From an uncultured virus (IMG/VR IMGVR_UViG_3300006120_000020) (Duplodnaviria > Heunggongvirae > Uroviricota > Caudoviricetes), in IMG/VR virus record IMGVR_UViG_3300006120_000020: DNA of 20,000 nt, one strand, 5' to 3'. Below the pieces are notes generated by a model that saw nothing but the letters and a program-made list of their open reading frames with translations, was not told the DNA's origin and made no database searches. Both the position numbers and the translations under genes were made by a program. Below are positions 1 to 4,426 of this stretch, piece after piece (the first letter of the stretch is position 1; the number at the start of each line of letters is the position of its first letter).

Positions 1-8
1 ACCGTCTT

Positions 9-24
9 GTTGTTTTTTTACAAC
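9..24. promoter_or_regulatory. GTTG-N8-CAAC palindrome (copy 1), putative regulator binding site
   Basis: GTTG tttttta CAAC-type palindrome with GTTG at 9-12 and CAAC at 21-24. Same geometry as the copy at 863-878, which lies just upstream of a sigma70 -35. Confidence 0.4.
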
Positions 25-25
25 T

Positions 26-101
26 TGGAGTAGGCAACAGGAGTCGAACCTGCATATACTGAGTTTGCAATCCAGTCCCTAGCCATTCGGGTCATGCCTA
101 C
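26..101 (-). tRNA. tRNA-Cys(GCA)
   Basis: Minus strand: acceptor GTAGGCA/TGCCTAC, U73, encoded CCA, anticodon loop TTGCAAA, T-arm GCAGG-TTCGACT-CCTGT. Anticodon stem imperfect (CTGGA/CTCAG). Confidence 0.9.
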
Positions 102-334
102 ACTAACTTTTTCCTTGAACTACGGTGTGTTTCATCACGCCTCATAGTCCAATCGTATGTTCCACCATCCGGTAGAACTTTGTTTTCTACTGCATCAACA
201 CCAAACTTACCCACAATTTCCGTGGTTCCATCGGTGATGGTTACAAATTCGTTTGTTTCATTGGTTGCAAACTTCATTGCTTCATCCAATGTTTTGAAAA
301 AACAATCACGATCACTCAAATAAACTTTCCACAT
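98..334 (-). CDS. hypothetical protein (78 aa) embedded in the tRNA array
   Basis: ATG at 334 with GAAAG/GTGAG upstream. Its TAG stop is nt 2-4 of tRNA-Cys. Confidence 0.75.
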   Translation of the reverse strand: MWKVYLSDRDCFFKTLDEAMKFATNETNEFVTITDGTTEIVGKFGVDAVENKVLPDGGTYDWTMRRDETHRSSRKKLV

Positions 335-349
335 AATCTCACTTTCATT

Positions 350-441
350 TGGTACCTCGGGAAGGAATCGAACCTTCTCAAGAACGCTAATCTGGCGCTA
401 AAAGTCTTATAAGGACTCTCTGACTACCAAGCCACCGAGGC
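350..441 (-). tRNA. atypical tRNA-Ile(TAT) with long variable arm and non-canonical D arm
   Basis: Acceptor GCCTCGG/CCGAGGT, A73, CCA. Anticodon arm GAGTC-CTTATAA-GACTT. 24-nt variable region containing hairpin AGCGC-CAGATTA-GCGTT. T-arm GAAGG-TTCGATT-CCTTC. Confidence 0.8.
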
Positions 442-444
442 ATT

Positions 445-536
445 TGGTGGTGAGTGTGGGATTTGAACCCACGGTGCATATTTCTACACACAACAACTTA
501 GCAGGTTGCCGATTTAAACCGCTCATCCAACTCACC
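445..536 (-). tRNA. tRNA-Ser(GCT)
   Basis: Acceptor GGTGAGT/ACTCACC, anticodon arm GCAAC-CTGCTAA-GTTGT, long variable arm, T-arm GTGGG-TTCAAAT-CCCAC, A73, CCA. Confidence 0.93.
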
Positions 537-542
537 GTTGTT

Positions 543-634
543 TGGTGGAAGCGGTGAGATTCGAACTCACGGACCCATTCCTGAGCCGGCAGTTTTCAAG
601 ACTGCTGCCATAAACCAGACTCGACCACGCTTCC
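543..634 (-). tRNA. tRNA-Ser(TGA)
   Basis: Acceptor GGAAGCG/CGCTTCC, anticodon arm GCAGT-CTTGAAA-ACTGC, long variable arm, T-arm GTGAG-TTCGAAT-CTCAC, A73, CCA. Confidence 0.95.
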
Positions 635-710
635 ATATAGAAACACACTAACGGACCGTAATAGACAATCCTCTCCACCGTAAAAGACAGCAGAGTAATG
701 TGTTTTTATA
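635..710 (-). ncRNA. candidate structured RNA (three-way junction) filling the tRNA-Gln/tRNA-Ser spacer
   Basis: Basal stem ATATAAAAACACATTA/TAGTGTGTTTCTATAT encloses two hairpins, CTCTGCTGT-CTTTT-ACGGTGGAG and GGATTGT-CTATT-ACGGTCC. The hairpins share a 13-nt repeat (655-667, 677-689). Confidence 0.6.
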
Positions 711-786
711 TGGCACCCCGTATTGGATTCGAACCAATGATACCGATTTCAAAGACCGGTGCCTTAGACCACTAGGCGAACAGGGA
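711..786 (-). tRNA. tRNA-Gln(TTG)
   Basis: Acceptor TCCCTGT/ACGGGGT (U1.U72 mismatch), G73, CCA. Anticodon arm CCGGT-CTTTGAA-ATCGG. T-arm ATTGG-TTCGAAT-CCAAT. Confidence 0.93.
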
Positions 787-808
787 ACAATTTTTTGACT
801 CTACAAAT

Positions 809-820
809 TTTTAAAGAACA
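809..820 (-). promoter_or_regulatory. boxA-like Nus antitermination site
   Basis: TGTTCTTTAAAA versus rrn boxA TGCTCTTTAACA (10/12). Lies between the promoter and the first tRNA. Confidence 0.65.
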
Positions 821-827
821 TGTGTGT

Positions 828-855
828 ATTGTATCAGAACCGAGATTCTTGTCAA
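828..855 (-). promoter_or_regulatory. sigma70-type promoter P2 for the tRNA array
   Basis: TTGACA (855-850), 16-nt spacer ending TGA (extended -10 TGn), TACAAT (833-828). Confidence 0.75.
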
Positions 856-860
856 TACAC

Positions 861-880
861 TTGTTGTTTCAAAACAACAA
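861..880. promoter_or_regulatory. palindrome TTGTTGTTT-CA-AAACAACAA (GTTG-N8-CAAC, copy 2)
   Basis: Perfect 9-bp inverted arms 5 nt upstream of the P2 -35 box. Related copy at 9-24. Confidence 0.5.
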
Positions 881-882
881 AC

Positions 883-917
883 AAAAAACCCTAGTAGATT
901 TCTCTGACTAGGGTTTT
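883..917 (-). terminator. intrinsic terminator / attenuator hairpin upstream of the tRNA array
   Basis: AAAACCCTAGT-C-AGA-GAAA-TCT-ACTAGGGTTTTTT: 7+3 bp stem with a GNRA loop, followed by U6 and GUUUG. Confidence 0.85.
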
Positions 918-944
918 GCGTTTGGTATCTTTTTTAGAACTTTG

Positions 945-1070
945 TTATTCGTCCCATCCCTCTACACAAAACCCACCTTTTTGAATCGCCCATGAGCTAT
1001 CACCACAATTATTTGTAACTGTGCGATACTCTGGTTGCAACGAAAAGGGTTTATGGGATATGAGAGACAC
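945..1070 (-). CDS. 41-aa putative attenuator leader peptide MSLISHKPFSLQPEYRTVTNNCGDSSWAIQKGGFCVEGWDE
   Basis: GTG start with AGAAAG 7 nt upstream, TAA at 947-945, own promoter at 1104-1132, terminator about 30 nt downstream. Too short for the ORF track. Confidence 0.7.
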   Translation of the reverse strand: MSLISHKPFSLQPEYRTVTNNCGDSSWAIQKGGFCVEGWDE

Positions 1071-1103
1071 GAATTTTCTTTCTAAAAATTTTTCAATGTT
1101 TGT

Positions 1104-1132
1104 ATTATATAGGAACTTTTGAGCCTTGGCAA
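1104..1132 (-). promoter_or_regulatory. sigma70-type promoter P1 for the leader ORF
   Basis: TTGCCA (1132-1127), 17-nt spacer, TATAAT (1109-1104). A late-promoter-like AATAAATA also occurs at 1154-1147. Confidence 0.8.
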
Positions 1133-1157
1133 CAACTATTTTGGTATATTTATTAAA

Positions 1158-1919
1158 TTATTTTCTTTCGATATCTTCTTCATCACATTCAAGACCATAT
1201 TGTATCTCTACAATCTTGCAAGGATGATCGAATGGATTAGTTAGTTGGTGCCATGAACCTACAGGCACTTTGTATTCATCGTGTTTGTTTAACAACAGAG
1301 GAGGTAATGCATAACCACCATTCATCATACTATTCACAACACAACAACCTTCACTAACGATCCAATACTCAGCACGATGTGAATGTCTTTGCATACTCAA
1401 AGATTTGCCAGGTTCTACAGTCAACTCTTTGACTTTCATTCCAGGTACTTCATGTAGAACACGATAGTAACCCCAAGCTCTGTCAGTCTTTGGTGCTTTC
1501 CATTCTTTTAGAATCCATGAAGAAGAATTTTTCTTATTCTCACCACCTACACCAAAAACAAATTCAAGGTTGTCATCTACAACATCCATTTCTGGAATAT
1601 TTGATTGTGTTCTATCACCACCGTTTGCAAAAATAATTCTTGCATCTGGCCAGATTTCTCTTACTTTTAAAATTGCAGCTCTGCTTGAATTGTCATCATC
1701 GTTATATGTGATAACTGCATCAAGGATTGAAAGGTGTTCTATGATTGTTTTGCGTTCATTCAAAGGCATAAACGCACGACCTTTTTTGCGTTCTAACCAT
1801 GCATCACTATTCAAACCAACAATCAATAAGTCGCCGAGTTTTGCGGCTTCTTTAAAATATTGAATGTGACCTGAATGTAGAGGATCAAATCCTCCTGTCA
1901 CTAACACAATCTTCTGCAT
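1158..1919 (-). CDS. cytidylyltransferase-family nucleotidyltransferase (RfaE-II/TagD-like) fused to a mannose-6-phosphate isomerase type II C-terminal cupin
   Basis: N-terminal GGFDPLHSGH (HxGH), VGLNSD, FANGGDR, KKNSSS. C-terminal RAWGYY, LSMQRHSHRAEYW, HQLTN, IVEIQYG...EEDIER. Confidence 0.85.
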   Translation of the reverse strand: MQKIVLVTGGFDPLHSGHIQYFKEAAKLGDLLIVGLNSDAWLERKKGRAFMPLNERKTIIEHLSILDAVITYNDDDNSSRAAILKVREIWPDARIIFANGGDRTQSNIPEMDVVDDNLEFVFGVGGENKKNSSSWILKEWKAPKTDRAWGYYRVLHEVPGMKVKELTVEPGKSLSMQRHSHRAEYWIVSEGCCVVNSMMNGGYALPPLLLNKHDEYKVPVGSWHQLTNPFDHPCKIVEIQYGLECDEEDIERK

Positions 1920-2421
1920 AACGTTTCCATCCTAAAGGTATCTTTTCAATTGGAGAGTCTGGATTGGCAATACCTTCAAAGACTTCCCACAATTTTTCTT
2001 TCACCACAAATTTGTTAAGTAGGCCTACTGCCATACCATAAGCTTCAATTTCCCACGGTTGACTGTAGTAATCTACATCATCAGATATATATTCACCTTT
2101 CCATCTGGTTAGGCGTTCGTTGGTTTCACTGTAAGCATACTGTTTGACATGCACCATTTCATGTGCAATGGTTTCCAAGATTTCTCTTGCACCGATATTT
2201 GGATTTACTTCTACCAAAAATTCTCTGGCTTTACCAGAGTATGTGTATTCCTCAACAGATGCGTATCCACAAACCTCAAGTGATTTATCAAACTTGATGG
2301 TTAAGTGTATGTTTTCCAACATATTTTTAGTCATTAGTTCTTCTGCAAAGAAGTGTGTTGCACGCTTCACAAAAGGACGAAATCTTTCTTTATCGGGACA
2401 TTTTATGATACTTAGTTGCAT
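1885..2421 (-). CDS. zincin-like metallopeptidase domain protein
   Basis: TIAHEMVHVKQ (HExxH) and downstream PWEIEAY. ATG at 2421 follows a GGAGA RBS; the ORF track starts at TTG 2433. Confidence 0.75.
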   Translation of the reverse strand: MQLSIIKCPDKERFRPFVKRATHFFAEELMTKNMLENIHLTIKFDKSLEVCGYASVEEYTYSGKAREFLVEVNPNIGAREILETIAHEMVHVKQYAYSETNERLTRWKGEYISDDVDYYSQPWEIEAYGMAVGLLNKFVVKEKLWEVFEGIANPDSPIEKIPLGWKRYAEDCVSDRRI

Positions 2422-2452
2422 CAGTTTCTCCAAGGAGTTGTCCTCGACCTAT

Positions 2453-2887
2453 TTATCGAATCTGCTCTACCTTAACTCCGGCTTTTTCAAGGAATAAAAT
2501 TCCACTATCATTCCGGTAAGCATCACGATAGAACACGTTACTGATGCCACTCTGATATACCAACTTGGCACAGTCCAAACAAGGAGCGTGGGTAACGAAC
2601 ATAGTAGCGCCATCACCAGATTCGGTCGATTTAGCCAACTTTGCAATCGCATTTGTTTCAGCATGTAAAACCTCAGCTTTAGTTACCAGTTCTGTTATTT
2701 TTGTTTGTTCATTAGTGAATTCAAACTCGCAATTATTGTTCCAACCGGATGGCATTCCGTTATAACCAATACTTATGATACGGTCATCTTTGACAATAAT
2801 GGCACCAACATGAAGTCGTCTGGCAGAAGACAATCCTGCGAAAGTCTCTGCCACCCTCATATACGCATTACGAAACTTTTCTTTCAT
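2453..2887 (-). CDS. cd: dCMP deaminase
   Basis: VGAIIV, GYNG, HAETNAI and PCLDC zinc-deaminase motifs. Confidence 0.92.
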   Translation of the reverse strand: MKEKFRNAYMRVAETFAGLSSARRLHVGAIIVKDDRIISIGYNGMPSGWNNNCEFEFTNEQTKITELVTKAEVLHAETNAIAKLAKSTESGDGATMFVTHAPCLDCAKLVYQSGISNVFYRDAYRNDSGILFLEKAGVKVEQIR

Positions 2888-3015
2888 TCCATCAACACAT
2901 AATCATTTTTAGAAACACCACATTCTGGACAGTTGACTTCATCAGGAAGACTCAACCAGTCTGCTTCAGACAATTGGTGGCCACAAACTACACAAACGTA
3001 AATTCTTTCGCTCAT
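2884..3015 (-). CDS. minimal rubredoxin (43 aa) MSERIYVCVVCGHQLSEADWLSLPDEVNCPECGVSKNDYVLME
   Basis: CxxCG...W..LPD...CPxCG..K..Y pattern. ATGA overlaps with both the rubrerythrin stop and the cd start. Not in the ORF track. Confidence 0.88.
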   Translation of the reverse strand: MSERIYVCVVCGHQLSEADWLSLPDEVNCPECGVSKNDYVLME

Positions 3016-3461
3016 TTCATTTCTCCTAGTTTAACTTGATATGCTTCTGCATGACGTTTTTCAACTTTAGCCAATGCAGCAAAACGTTTCTCAGCCATCT
3101 CTAGAACTTTCTTGAATTGTTCCGCATGTTGTTGAGACTCGTCAACCTGTTCTTGGAATTCTGTTACTGCACGATGACCTTCTTGTTGTGCATCGGTAAC
3201 AAAACCAGGATACATGGTTGTGAATTCATGTGTCTCACCTTCAATGGCAAGTTCTAAGCATTTCTTAGTTGTTGGTTTACCAATTAGTAACTCTAAATGA
3301 CCCCATGCATGGAGAATTTCTTGGTCAGCAGTGTGTTCGAAGTGTTTTGCAACTTCTTCAAAGCCTTCTGCACGAGCCAACTTAGCAAAATAACGGTACT
3401 TGATGTGAGCCATTGATTCGCCTGCCAATGCACTCTCAAGATTTTTCATTGTAACTGACAT
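3012..3461 (-). CDS. rubrerythrin (ferritin-like di-iron domain, no fused rubredoxin domain)
   Basis: NLESALAGESMA..KY.YFA..A..EG, ExxH (EILH), GETHE...MYP, second ExxH-like motifs. Confidence 0.9.
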   Translation of the reverse strand: MSVTMKNLESALAGESMAHIKYRYFAKLARAEGFEEVAKHFEHTADQEILHAWGHLELLIGKPTTKKCLELAIEGETHEFTTMYPGFVTDAQQEGHRAVTEFQEQVDESQQHAEQFKKVLEMAEKRFAALAKVEKRHAEAYQVKLGEMK

Positions 3462-3503
3462 ATTTTTCCTTTATAAAGTTTAGCAATCAAATAATTACTT
3501 ATG

Positions 3504-3571
3504 ATAGTATATCACTATTTTCATCAAAAGTCTAATTGTTATTTTTAATCGTGGTGATAGTGTCGTTACTT
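3504..3571 (-). promoter_or_regulatory. sigma70-type promoter of rubrerythrin-rubredoxin with OxyR-like boxes
   Basis: TAGACT (3534-3529), 17-nt spacer, TGA-TATACT (3511-3506). ATTG-N7-TAAT-N7-ATAG-N7-ACTT (3535-3571) abuts the -35. ATAG-N7-CTAT at 3504-3518. Confidence 0.55.
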
Positions 3572-3753
3572 TGGGTAATTTTTGATTCTTCCGGTACCGA
3601 TGGTGGGTACTCTAAGAACTTAAACATCTGAATTGGCTTCCAGTATCGGTGTATGATGTTGTTAATTACTACAACAGTAGATACAAAAATAATAAGAGAT
3701 AACCCAGTCAAAATACTACCTGCAAGCACTTCTGCTGCTACATCCATATCCAT
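3532..3753 (-). CDS. hypothetical single-pass membrane protein (73 aa)
   Basis: ATG at 3753 after GAAGGAG; hydrophobic stretch VLAGSILTGLSLIIFVSTVVVI. The ORF-track start at 3783 lies inside the tRNA. Confidence 0.75.
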   Translation of the reverse strand: MDMDVAAEVLAGSILTGLSLIIFVSTVVVINNIIHRYWKPIQMFKFLEYPPSVPEESKITQSNDTITTIKNNN

Positions 3754-3771
3754 AATATACTCCTTCAAAAA

Positions 3772-3838
<67 letters not shown>

Positions 3839-3848
<10 letters not shown>

Positions 3849-4426
3849 AATAATGATTTAAAAATTTGTTGTTGTAAAGATACCGCCTTATCAACAAACG
3901 CAAGATTATCAAAGTACTTATCATCAAAGTAGGATTGAATTTTACCTTTTGTTGCCTGAATAGTGGCTTCTTTTTCACCTTGTGCAATCGTTACAACAGT
4001 CATGCCATTTTTCTTGGCGATGTGTTGCATTACCTTATTATCTGATAGGCATTGAGTGAATAGAGTCTTTGCGCCTTTAGACATTGCCCATGTTGCACCA
4101 CGAATGAATAACTCTTGGCCTAGACCTTGGCCACGAAATTCTGGTGAAACGGTGAATCCCATTTCAGCAGAATAATCACCATCTTTGCTTAGTGGATAAA
4201 AAGTAACATGAACAGAGCCAACAACCCCAGCGTTTTCGTGTTCAACAATAAACCACATGTTCTTGAAACCAAATTCATCAAAGGCCTTATCTAAGTAGTC
4301 AATTATATTAGCATCGGATGCAGCATAACCAAACCTCAGATAACGGTCATGACCAACAATATCTTCTAGAAAATGGTCGTATAACCGGTTCGCATCTTCT
4401 TCGGTTGCAATTTTACGTGGAATCAT
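3839..4426 (-). CDS. GNAT family N-acetyltransferase
   Basis: DRYLRFG, AEMGFTVSPEFRGQGLG (acetyl-CoA motif A), CLSDNKVMQHIAKKNG (motif B). Confidence 0.88.

What the first reader, a model, noticed from the sequence alone, without database searches (positions are those of the whole stretch)
883..1132. Candidate pan-codon attenuator: a leader peptide that samples nearly the whole genetic code, placed ahead of the phage tRNA array
SEEN: promoter TTGCCA-17-TATAAT, then AGAAAG RBS, then a 41-codon ORF, then a strong terminator (883-917), then boxA and the tRNA array. The first 29 codons are GTG TCT CTC ATA TCC CAT AAA CCC TTT TCG TTG CAA CCA GAG TAT CGC ACA GTT ACA AAT AAT TGT GGT GAT AGC TCA TGG GCG ATT. 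That is 27 distinct codons (only ACA and AAT repeat), all 19 non-Met amino acids by codon 28, and five different Ser codons. Each downstream tRNA in the window has a cognate codon here (CAA, TCA, AGC, ATA, TGT). Mutually exclusive pairings are present. Antiterminator 2:3: GGGUUUUGUGU (974-964, codons 33-36) pairs over 11 bp with ACGCAAAACCC (921-911), the terminator's 5' arm. Protector 1:2: AUUCGU (1074-1069)/ACGAAU (952-947), AUCCC (1059-1055)/GGGAU (960-956), AAACCC (1052-1047)/GGGUUU (974-969). ESTABLISHED: this is the trp/his ribosome-stalling attenuator layout, but those leaders repeat codons for one or a few amino acids. Anti-phage anticodon nucleases (PrrC, RloC, PARIS AriB, retron PtuAB) destroy host tRNAs, and phage tRNAs can rescue infection. 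INFERENCE: loss of almost any charged tRNA stalls the ribosome in codons 2-29, blocks 1:2, allows 2:3, and turns on read-through into replacement tRNAs. This would be an inducible sensor of tRNA-pool integrity, and I know of no described phage system like it. CAVEAT: a second promoter (828-855) lies downstream of the terminator, so attenuation may boost rather than solely gate the array.
Basis: partly seen in the sequence, partly recalled or inferred. Interest (0 to 1): 0.93.

Follow-up and report, generated by a model that had tools for sequence, protein, structure and literature searches.

The report
All-amino-acid leader attenuator before phage tRNAs
A family of uncultured T4-like phages places a short translated leader containing nearly every amino acid, with a switchable terminator, in front of their large tRNA gene arrays, which looks like a feedback sensor of overall tRNA supply.

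Summary
Comparison with relatives shows the region is a conserved module. I found 34 distinct versions in uncultured T4-like phage contigs, always at the head of a 22-28 gene tRNA array. Each has a near-consensus promoter (P1), a 33-45 codon ORF, an intrinsic terminator and a boxA-like element. The ORF's last codons pair with the terminator's 5' arm. This antiterminator covaries as well as the terminator does: 6 of 11 pairs change on both sides, and 0 of 500 shuffles reach the observed score. RNAalifold also picks it as the consensus helix. The peptides are only about 25% identical per column, yet 27 of 34 contain all 20 amino acids. The chance of that is 0.03-1% per same-length window of this phage's proteins. 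In 7 of 34 versions no second promoter separates the terminator from the tRNAs. In 25 of 34 the ATG lies 3-7 nt (6-7 in 24) after the -10, so the mRNA is probably leaderless. The best reading is a ribosome-mediated attenuator that reads overall aminoacyl-tRNA supply. This is inferred, because no expression data could be obtained. "Pan-amino-acid" is better supported than "pan-codon". The protector hairpin is lineage-specific. The link to anticodon nucleases is untested.

The parts
1104..1132 (-). Promoter P1 (-35 TTGCCA at 1132-1127, 17-nt spacer, -10 TATAAT at 1109-1104), preceded by an A/T-rich stretch
   Evidence: 11/12. It is conserved in relatives, with CTATATAAT nearly invariant in alignment A2. 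P1 scores 10-12 of 12 in 30 of 34 versions.
1078..1083 (-). Weak Shine-Dalgarno-like AGAAAG, part of a ~26-nt insertion that carries the GTG start in the window's subgroup
   Evidence: The insertion is present in 8 of 34 versions. The other versions start at an ATG 3-7 nt after the -10.
945..1070 (-). Leader ORF: 41 codons plus stop, GTG start. It holds all 19 non-Met amino acids in codons 2-28.
   Evidence: It is conserved in frame in 34 of 34 versions. It has no Pfam, NCBIfam or PHROG match and no protein homologue.
931..1088 (-). Long imperfect hairpin of the untranslated leader (the 'protector'; its 5' strand includes AAACCC at 1052-1047, which pairs with segment 2)
   Evidence: -50.7 kcal/mol, z = -5.5. 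Only 6 of 24 versions have a protector strong enough to hold the predicted antiterminator probability below 0.5.
964..974 (-). Segment 2 (GGGUUUUGUGU, codons 33-36), the 5' strand of the antiterminator
   Evidence: It tracks the core of the terminator's 3' arm in every lineage.
911..921 (-). Segment 3 (ACGCAAAACCC): 4 nt upstream of the terminator plus the first 7 nt of its 5' arm. It pairs either with segment 2 or with the 3' arm.
   Evidence: 90.9% of cells paired, 6 of 11 pairs changed on both sides, 0 of 500 shuffles as high.
883..917 (-). Intrinsic terminator: 11-bp stem, 11-nt loop, T-run
   Evidence: -16.9 kcal/mol; 88.2% of cells paired, 6 of 11 pairs changed on both sides.
861..880 (-). 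Small hairpin TTGTTG-N8-CAACAA just upstream of P2
   Evidence: A GTTGT..ACAAC hairpin precedes the P2-type promoters in the relatives and inside the arrays. Its function is unknown.
828..855 (-). Promoter P2 (TTGACA-16-TACAAT with a TG extension)
   Evidence: A promoter scoring >=10/12 is present at this place in 27 of 34 versions and absent in 7 of 34.
797..820 (-). boxA-like element TGTTCTTTAAAAATTTGTAGAGTC
   Evidence: It is conserved exactly in relatives and repeated inside the arrays. The same 20-mer lies in the 16S-23S spacers of Burkholderiales rRNA operons.
711..786 (-). tRNA-Gln(UUG), the first gene of the array. The array continues at 634..26 in the window and beyond it: 28 tRNAs in the genome, 27 of them downstream of the leader.

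Best explanation
This is a ribosome-mediated transcription attenuator that sits at the head of the phage's tRNA gene array and reads how fast a ribosome can translate a leader containing every amino acid. P1 fires and the leader ORF is translated as it emerges. In most relatives the mRNA appears to be leaderless; in the window a weak SD and a GTG are used. If the ribosome reaches the last codons or the stop in time, it covers segment 2. Segment 3 then pairs with segment 4, and transcription stops at 883-917. If the ribosome is delayed anywhere earlier in the ORF, segment 2 pairs with segment 3 before segment 4 is made. RNA polymerase then reads on through the boxA-like site into the tRNA genes. 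The leader holds each amino acid about once or twice, so shortage of almost any aminoacyl-tRNA would slow the ribosome. The circuit would therefore act as negative feedback between overall tRNA supply and transcription of a near-complete phage tRNA set. What is shown: the parts, their conservation, covariation of both alternative helices, conservation of the all-20 composition, and the direct terminator-to-tRNA junction in some relatives. What is inferred: translation of the ORF, the direction of the switch, and what it senses.
For: (1) The module is conserved in 34 distinct versions, all at the start of tRNA arrays and downstream of different genes. (2) The ORF stays open in the same frame in 34 of 34 versions despite indels and about 25% mean column identity. 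pN/pS is mostly 0.1-0.8 in 17 close pairs, with outliers of 0, 2.27 and one pair with no synonymous change. (3) For the antiterminator, 90.9% of cells pair, 6 of 11 pairs change on both sides, 0 of 500 shuffles reach the score, and slid controls pair at 27-58%. RNAalifold run on the whole 312-column alignment returns this helix alone. The segment 2:3 duplex is -12 to -22 kcal/mol and beats >=98% of codon shuffles in 31 of 34 versions. Segment 2 tracks the terminator arm across lineages: GGGUUUU, GGGUCUU, AGAGGUU, GGGGUUU, GAGGUUU. (4) The terminator covaries too. (5) In footprint-constrained folding of the nascent RNA, a ribosome on segment 2 through the stop abolishes the antiterminator in 24 of 24 versions. 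A ribosome further upstream allows it in most. (6) 27 of 34 leaders contain all 20 amino acids, 5 contain 19, one contains 18 and one contains 16. P(all 20) is 3e-4 to 1e-2 per same-length window of this phage's proteins. It is 0.2-6% even when residues are drawn from the leaders' own pooled composition, and about 1-2% for nucleotide shuffles. (7) Singleton amino acids move rather than vanish between close relatives: Thr and Pro between L054 and L056, Cys between L070 and L105. There is one loss, Val in L092. (8) 7 of 34 versions, from two lineages, have only 23-24 nt and no promoter between terminator and boxA/tRNA-Gln. (9) The arrays cover 19-20 amino acids in the leader-bearing genomes G000, G001, G002 and G004.
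Against: At equilibrium the terminator always wins in folding, so the switch has to be kinetic. 27 of 34 versions, including the window, have a strong P2 after the terminator, so attenuation can only add to P2 there. In the strict sensing zone, only 4 of 24 leaders hold all 20 amino acids; Gly, Val and Cys often sit only in the segment-2 codons, where a stall should favour termination. GGG-UUU-UGU-GUA itself supplies four amino acids, including rare Cys, 'for free'. One good module (L128) has only 16 amino acids. One relative lineage has lost the ORF yet keeps a 22-tRNA array. A conditional test that fixes residues shared with the nearest other cluster gives only modest support for selection on completeness: per-lineage P is 0.02-0.9, and my hand Fisher combination over 8 clusters gives about 0.01 from tests that are not independent. 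An invariant Trp and a near-invariant His suggest some peptide- or codon-specific role as well.
Confidence: 0.6

Rival explanations
1. It is a leader-peptide attenuator, but it does not sense the aminoacyl-tRNA pool amino acid by amino acid. It reports only whether transcription and translation are coupled (general translation capacity, ribosome availability, stage of infection), or it responds to one specific feature such as the invariant Trp codon or a nascent-peptide arrest. On this reading the flat amino-acid composition is a side effect.
For: Without a ribosome the antiterminator is predicted to form in 18 of 24 versions, so the simplest rule is 'no timely ribosome means read-through'. 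Trp is the only invariant residue and His is nearly so. Sensing-zone coverage is incomplete in 20 of 24 leaders. Known leader-ORF attenuators that respond to general ribosome stalling exist: bmrCD PMC4191407 and vmlR PMC9226507 (abstracts seen).
Against: It gives no reason why 27 of 34 highly diverged leaders keep all 20 amino acids, when 0.03-6% is expected under every null tried. It also does not explain why singleton residues relocate rather than disappear.
Confidence: 0.22
2. The ORF is an ordinary small early phage gene with its own promoter and terminator, encoding a functional micro-protein. The tRNA array is driven by P2. The segment 2:3 pairing serves mRNA stability or translation control, not read-through.
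For: pN/pS below 1 in most close pairs. There are conserved residues: W, H, and an S-W...G-Y/F-C pattern. P2 is present in 27 of 34 versions. T4-like phages carry many small early genes (general knowledge).
Against: An alternative helix that competes with the terminator's 5' arm covaries as strongly as the terminator. 7 of 34 versions have no P2, so the tRNAs lie directly behind the terminator. The module is always at an array head whatever the upstream gene. There is no family match in Pfam, NCBIfam or PHROGs and no homologue among called proteins. Mean column identity is only 25%.
Confidence: 0.1
3. It is a chance ORF in a spacer between the terminator of the upstream operon and the tRNA promoter. 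The codon diversity is a post-hoc pick.
For: Genome-wide, about 0.2 such ORFs are expected by chance under the Markov null (1.6e-4 x 1,326 ORFs).
Against: The ORF, its frame, P1 at a fixed distance, and both helices are conserved in 34 versions across deep divergence.
Confidence: 0.02

Closest known systems
Classical leader-peptide transcription attenuators of amino-acid operons (trp, his, leu, thr, ilv, pheA; theory in PMC1183508, abstract seen)
   Same: A short leader ORF, an intrinsic terminator, and an antiterminator that competes for the terminator's 5' arm. A ribosome at the ORF end masks segment 2. The window also has a 1:2 protector hairpin.
   Different: There are no runs of regulatory codons for one amino acid; instead every amino acid occurs about once or twice. 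The regulated genes are tRNA genes of a phage, not biosynthetic or aaRS genes. The protector is weak in most relatives. The start is mostly leaderless.
Leader-ORF attenuators that sense general ribosome stalling by antibiotics (bmrB-bmrCD PMC4191407; vmlR PMC9226507; msrD bioRxiv 10.1101/2021.11.29.470318; abstracts seen)
   Same: The leader ORF has no single-amino-acid bias. Stalling anywhere upstream favours the antiterminator and read-through.
   Different: Those control resistance factors in bacteria and respond to drugs. Here the target is a tRNA array and the leader composition is all-inclusive and conserved as such.
Leaderless short-ORF attenuators in mycobacteria (polycysteine ORFs, bioRxiv 10.1101/834739; abstract seen)
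   Same: A regulatory short ORF that begins at the 5' end of the transcript. In 25 of 34 versions the ATG lies 3-7 nt (6-7 in 24 of them) after the -10.
   Different: Those carry cysteine codon runs and sense cysteine. The window itself is not leaderless (GTG with an SD-like insert). The leaderless start is inferred here from spacing only.
rrn-type boxA (Nus-factor) antitermination sites
   Same: The 20-24 nt element after P2 is letter-for-letter the element found between the spacer tRNAs and 23S rRNA in rRNA operons of four Burkholderiales genomes. It resembles the E. coli boxA consensus (the consensus is recalled from memory, not from a call).
   Different: It is used by a phage in front of, and repeatedly inside, a tRNA array. 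Its function was not tested.

Membership tests
Ribosome-mediated (leader-peptide) transcription attenuator | Short translated ORF directly upstream of an intrinsic terminator, inside the 5' region of the regulated transcript | tested here: met
   The ORF ends 20-40 nt before the terminator's 5' arm in 34 of 34 versions. It is conserved in frame. Translation itself has not been shown.
Ribosome-mediated (leader-peptide) transcription attenuator | Mutually exclusive antiterminator and terminator helices that share one strand | tested here: met
   each helix has 6 of 11 pairs with changes on both sides, and 0 of 500 shuffles reach the observed score. RNAalifold picks the antiterminator.
Ribosome-mediated (leader-peptide) transcription attenuator | A ribosome at the end of the leader masks the antiterminator strand | tested here: met
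   Segment 2 lies in the last codons, and the stop follows it by 0-6 codons. Footprint modelling gives P(2:3) = 0 in 24 of 24 versions. This is a model, not a measurement.
Ribosome-mediated (leader-peptide) transcription attenuator | Protector/pause hairpin 1:2 that gives termination without translation | tested here: inconclusive
   It is strong in the window (z = -5.5; P(2:3) = 0.02 without a ribosome). P(2:3) is below 0.5 in only 6 of 24 versions.
Ribosome-mediated (leader-peptide) transcription attenuator | Clustered regulatory codons for the amino acid whose pathway is controlled | tested here: not met
   There are no codon runs. The leaders hold 16-20 different amino acids in 33-45 codons.
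Ribosome-mediated (leader-peptide) transcription attenuator | Read-through rises when the cognate charged tRNA is scarce | not testable with these tools
T-box or other RNA-only riboswitch in Rfam | Match to a curated covariance model | tested here: not met
   only tRNAs and sub-threshold chance hits in window 1-4000.
Leaderless short-ORF attenuators | Start codon at the transcript's 5' end | tested here: inconclusive
   The ATG lies 3-7 nt (6-7 in 24) after the -10 hexamer in 25 of 34 versions, but not in the window (33 nt, SD-like insert). No transcription start site has been mapped.
rrn boxA antitermination site | Sequence identity with the boxA region of host rRNA operons, located downstream of the promoter | tested here: met
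   the exact 20-mer occurs in 5 rrn spacers of 4 Burkholderiales genomes, 170-240 nt before the 23S rRNA. Nus-factor binding was not tested.

The most novel reading that the evidence does not exclude
The leader is a sensor of tRNA-pool integrity. When a host defence (anticodon nucleases such as PrrC, RloC, PARIS AriB, retron-associated or Schlafen-type nucleases) or host shut-off depletes any tRNA species, ribosomes stall in the all-amino-acid leader. P1 transcription then floods through the attenuator and the boxA site into a near-complete set of replacement tRNAs. This would be an inducible counter-defence circuit encoded entirely in about 250 nt of RNA logic.
Probability: 0.2. Interest if true: 0.95.

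Novelty: new variant of a known kind. Interest (0 to 1): 0.85.

Why it matters
Phage tRNA arrays are now viewed as codon-usage compensation and as a counter to tRNA-cleaving defences (PMC10264068, PMC11464382, PMC11555353; abstracts seen). How their expression is controlled is essentially unknown. Five full-text searches found no described attenuator in front of phage tRNA genes and no leader peptide built to contain all amino acids. If the reading holds, it extends the textbook attenuation principle from sensing one amino acid to sensing the sum of all of them. It would also give a compact natural reporter of global translation-elongation capacity. It makes the question of when a phage needs its own tRNAs directly testable with a 250-nt reporter. 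The relatives that lack P2 provide a clean construct for that test.

Tried and rejected
(1) Synteny through the upstream gene. 22 loci encode relatives of the 253-aa cytidylyltransferase-like protein, but only the one near-identical contig has tRNAs beside it. This route gave no homologous leaders. (2) Protein-level searches with the 41-aa peptide found nothing: tblastn against cultured phages gave only E >= 6; the word-indexed protein search gave no candidate; PHROGs, Pfam and NCBIfam gave no family. (3) blastn of the module against 50,697 cultured-phage records found no match. One search hit only tRNA genes. (4) Equilibrium folding of the full leader plus terminator with ribosome footprints is uninformative, because the local terminator hairpin wins thermodynamically nearly everywhere. 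I replaced it with folding of the nascent RNA that ends at segment 3. (5) The 34-sequence MAFFT alignment A5 put segment 2 of several lineages in different columns, so I did not count pairs on it. Column-based counts rest on the 24-sequence alignment A1. All 34 were tested one by one by duplex folding against codon shuffles. (6) Rows dropped. L115 was excluded: start 46 nt after a -10-like hexamer, a different terminator, duplex only -9.8 kcal/mol, 16 amino acids. L149 was excluded: start uncertain, and the ORF may be the end of a longer gene; it had all 20 amino acids, so dropping it does not favour my reading. L107 was excluded because its leader is cut by the contig end. L030/L089 has the module, but my terminator finder missed it; its peptide is identical to that of L072 and is not counted twice. 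(7) I did not test whether leader codons are preferentially those read by the phage's own tRNAs. The arrays cover nearly all codons and the host is unknown, so the test has no power. (9) psbA is absent from the genome, so I do not adopt the cyanophage label suggested by the clamp-loader match (about 60% identity).
Full report
WHAT THE WINDOW IS. The window is the minus strand of a 166.6-kb, 98%-complete uncultured virus record. It carries T4-type replication and recombination genes: clamp loader, SbcCD-like nuclease, helicase and dCMP deaminase. The clamp loader is about 60% identical to those of Synechococcus myoviruses. The genome has no psbA. The module has no alignable counterpart in 50,697 cultured-phage records. 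GC content is 35-42%.

CHECK OF THE OBSERVATION.
- P1 is TTGCCA-17-TATAAT at 1132..1104, and P2 is TTGACA-16-TACAAT at 855..828.
- AGAAAG lies 7 nt before a GTG, and the 41-codon ORF runs 1070..945.
- The terminator at 917..883 has an 11-bp stem and a T-run. The simple scan missed it because its loop is 11 nt.
- The codon list is exact: 27 distinct codons in the first 29, and all 19 non-Met amino acids by codon 28.
- Only 0.09% of 43,303 29-codon windows in this genome's long ORFs reach 27 distinct codons.
- Of 1,326 small ORFs in the genome, this is the only one with >=27 codons and >=19 amino acids. The Markov-random frequency is 1.6e-4.
- The 11-bp pairing of 974-964 with 921-911 exists.
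- The three short 'protector' pairings are parts of one long hairpin formed by the whole untranslated leader: -50.7 kcal/mol, z = -5.5.

Taken alone, a post-hoc statistic in one sequence is weak evidence. The case rests on relatives.

FINDING RELATIVES. The upstream gene was no guide: only 1 of its 22 related loci has tRNAs next to it. Patterns from the tRNA-Gln gene and from the conserved element between P2 and the first tRNA were more useful. They brought in 128 loci (5, 22, 29 and 72). In the first round there were 55 oriented contexts, 43 of them distinct, and these gave 24 distinct modules including the window. In the second round there were 73 contexts, 54 distinct. 16 of the 54 were internal array promoters with a tRNA just upstream. 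23 were flagged as modules, 11 already known and 12 new. I dropped L115 and L149 as doubtful; L149 had all 20 amino acids. This left 34 distinct modules. One lineage (L041/42/47) keeps the -10 of P1 abutting the terminator but has lost the ORF.

ANATOMY OF THE FAMILY. All 34 share the same order: A/T-rich stretch, P1, ORF of 33-45 codons, 20-40 nt of spacer, terminator, then the boxA-like element and a tRNA (usually tRNA-Gln). P1 scores 10-12 of 12 in 30 of 34.
- In 25 of 34 the ATG lies 3-7 nt after the -10 hexamer (6-7 nt in 24 of them). That is where transcription should start, so the leader mRNA is probably leaderless.
- The window belongs to a subgroup of 8 in which a ~26-nt insertion provides AGAAAG/GAAAG plus a new start.
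- The genes upstream of the module differ between phages. The module therefore travels with the array, not with the upstream operon.
- In 27 of 34 a P2-type promoter (>=10/12) lies between terminator and boxA.
- In 7 of 34 (two lineages, L054/56/65/77 and L090/139/146) only 23-24 nt lie there, and no promoter-like site is found. There the first tRNAs can be reached only through the terminator.

THE TWO COMPETING HELICES. On the 24-sequence alignment A1, the proposed antiterminator pairs in 90.9% of cells. 6 of its 11 pairs change on both sides, and 0 of 500 shuffles are as high. Sliding one strand by 1-3 columns drops pairing to 27-58%. The terminator gives 88.2% and 6 of 11. RNAalifold, given the whole 312-column region with no hint, returns the antiterminator as its only consensus helix.

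Sequence by sequence, the best duplex between the ORF and the terminator's 5' arm always lies in the last codons. It is -12 to -22 kcal/mol and beats >=98% of codon-shuffled ORFs in 31 of 34 (the other three score 0.027, 0.030 and 0.067).

The core of segment 2 changes together with the terminator arms: GGGUUUU, GGGUCUU (at the cost of Phe to Ser), AGAGGUU, AAGGGUU, GGGGUUU, GAGGUUU. This is hard to explain for a plain gene followed by its terminator.

HOW THE SWITCH SHOULD WORK. With the full terminator present, equilibrium folding always prefers it. As in trp, the decision must therefore be kinetic. I folded the nascent RNA ending at segment 3 with a 29-nt footprint placed at each A-site codon.
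- A ribosome on segment 2 or at the stop removes the antiterminator in 24 of 24.
- A ribosome further upstream leaves it at probability 0.6-0.99 in most.
- Without any ribosome the window forms the protector hairpin, giving P(2:3) = 0.02. In 18 of 24 relatives, however, the antiterminator forms anyway (P >= 0.5).

The family rule is therefore that termination needs a ribosome that reaches the ORF end in time. The window's subgroup has added a trp-like 1:2 protector. These are model results, not measurements.

THE ALL-AMINO-ACID PROPERTY. The peptides share one invariant Trp, a near-invariant His, and 25% mean column identity. Nevertheless 27 of 34 contain all 20 amino acids (counting the initiator Met), 5 contain 19, one contains 18 and one (L128) contains 16.

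In same-length windows of this phage's own proteins, P(all 20) is 3e-4 (33 aa) to 1e-2 (46 aa). 4 of 927 small ORFs reach it, among them the leader itself. More generous nulls still give low values: drawing from the leaders' own flat pooled composition gives 0.2-6%, and shuffling each ORF's nucleotides gives about 1-2%.

Shared ancestry inflates raw counts, so I also fixed every residue shared with the nearest other cluster and redrew only the rest. Per-lineage P is then 0.02-0.9. My hand Fisher combination over 8 clusters gives about 0.01, from tests that are not independent. Between close relatives, amino acids present once tend to move rather than vanish: Thr and Pro between L054 and L056, and Cys between L070 and L105. 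There is one loss, Val in L092.

Three limits apply. In the strict zone where a stall leaves segment 2 free, coverage is 15-20 amino acids, and complete in only 4 of 24. Gly, Val and Cys are often supplied only by the segment-2 codons. Even so, these zones are far more diverse than protein windows of the same length, for example 19 of 31 at P = 3e-3. Second, synonymous diversity is also above expectation, at 749 against 672 +/- 9 distinct codons. But leader GC3 is 0.40 against 0.31 for the genome, and hairpin constraints could cause that. 'Pan-amino-acid' is therefore the defensible claim and 'pan-codon' is not yet. Third, pN/pS in 17 close pairs is mostly 0.1-0.8, with outliers. That fits a translated ORF under moderate constraint.

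WHAT IS REGULATED. The genome has 28 tRNA genes for 19 amino acids (none for Ala), and 27 of them lie downstream of the leader. Three other leader-bearing genomes have 26-27 tRNAs for 19-20 amino acids. The ORF-less relative has 22 tRNAs for 17 amino acids. A leader holding every amino acid thus precedes a tRNA set for nearly every amino acid. The simplest logic is negative feedback: slow decoding of any codon class delays the ribosome, the antiterminator forms, and more array transcripts are made. I could not test whether the trigger in nature is codon-usage mismatch with a GC-rich host, host shut-off, or tRNA-cleaving defences.

THE boxA-LIKE ELEMENT AND A HOST HINT. The element after P2 is conserved exactly and recurs with P2-type promoters inside the arrays. 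Its 20-mer occurs in 7 places among 185,579 species' genomes. Five of the seven are in the 16S-23S spacers of four Burkholderiales-type Betaproteobacteria, after two tRNA genes and 170-240 nt before the 23S rRNA. That is the position of the rrn spacer antitermination site. A GC-rich host would also make sense of an AT-rich phage carrying a full tRNA set. The host assignment is inference.

COMPARISON WITH WHAT IS KNOWN. The layout is that of leader-peptide attenuators. Two of their defining features fail: there are no clustered regulatory codons, and the target is not an amino-acid pathway. The closest functional analogues are leader ORFs that sense general ribosome stalling by antibiotics (PMC4191407, PMC9226507) and leaderless short-ORF attenuators in mycobacteria (bioRxiv 10.1101/834739). 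For all of these I saw abstracts only. Five full-text searches found no attenuator described in front of phage tRNA genes, and no leader peptide noted for containing all amino acids. Subscription-only literature was not searchable. Rfam has no matching family.

VERDICT. The attenuator reading is strongly supported by comparative evidence; I put about 0.85 on 'it is a ribosome-mediated attenuator'. The claim that it integrates the supply of all aminoacyl-tRNAs is well motivated but unproven, at about 0.6 for the full statement. The anti-defence role is open, at about 0.2. It is a new variant of a known kind of regulator, in a new place, with an unusual and testable design principle.

Noticed in passing
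window 797-820 (-); L157, L158, L160, L161, L162: The boxA-like element after P2 is identical over 20-24 nt to an element in the 16S-23S spacer of rRNA operons of Curvibacter, Leptothrix, Caldimonas and an uncultured betaproteobacterium. This suggests mimicry of the host rrn antitermination site and a Burkholderiales host.
   Followed up: partly
window 861-880 (-); also before internal promoters, e.g. L032, L036, L044, L046: A small hairpin (GTTGT/TTGTTG, loop, ACAAC/CAACAA) sits just upstream of the -35 of every P2-type promoter, both at the array head and inside the arrays. It may be a protein-binding or processing site; its function is unknown.
   Followed up: no
L002 4905-5068 (= own genome just beyond the window's low end): The P2 + boxA-like unit is repeated inside the tRNA array at 78-80% identity, so the array is cut into several promoter-boxA-tRNA blocks. 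Relatives show the same arrangement.
   Followed up: partly
window 350-441 (-): ARAGORN calls a 92-nt 'tRNA-Ile(UAU)' with its anticodon at position 31. It scores only 31.2 bits against the Rfam tRNA model, just above the threshold. The same odd 90-92 nt gene is kept in four related genomes. It may be a type-II-like or otherwise unusual tRNA.
   Followed up: no
L041, L042, L047 (= L121, L125, L140): In one related lineage the leader ORF is gone. The CCTATATAAT of P1 runs almost directly into the terminator, and P2, boxA and a 22-tRNA array (17 amino acids) remain. This is a natural attenuator-less control.
   Followed up: partly
window 98-334 (-): A 78-aa ORF lies between tRNA genes inside the array and has no PHROG match. 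Its C-terminal half is conserved in related arrays (L032, L036).
   Followed up: no
window 986-1000 (-), alignments A2 and A4: The leader has one invariant Trp codon. A separate invariant TAT lies about 13 codons upstream, in TATCGC/TATTGC. In several relatives the Trp codon is part of a local hairpin. This may be a pause hairpin or a peptide-specific feature.
   Followed up: no
window 1158-1919 (-): The gene just upstream (253 aa) has an N-terminal cytidylyl/adenylyl-transferase-like part. In this phage it sits between the metalloprotease-like gene and the array. In most relatives the metalloprotease-like gene abuts P1 directly.
   Followed up: no
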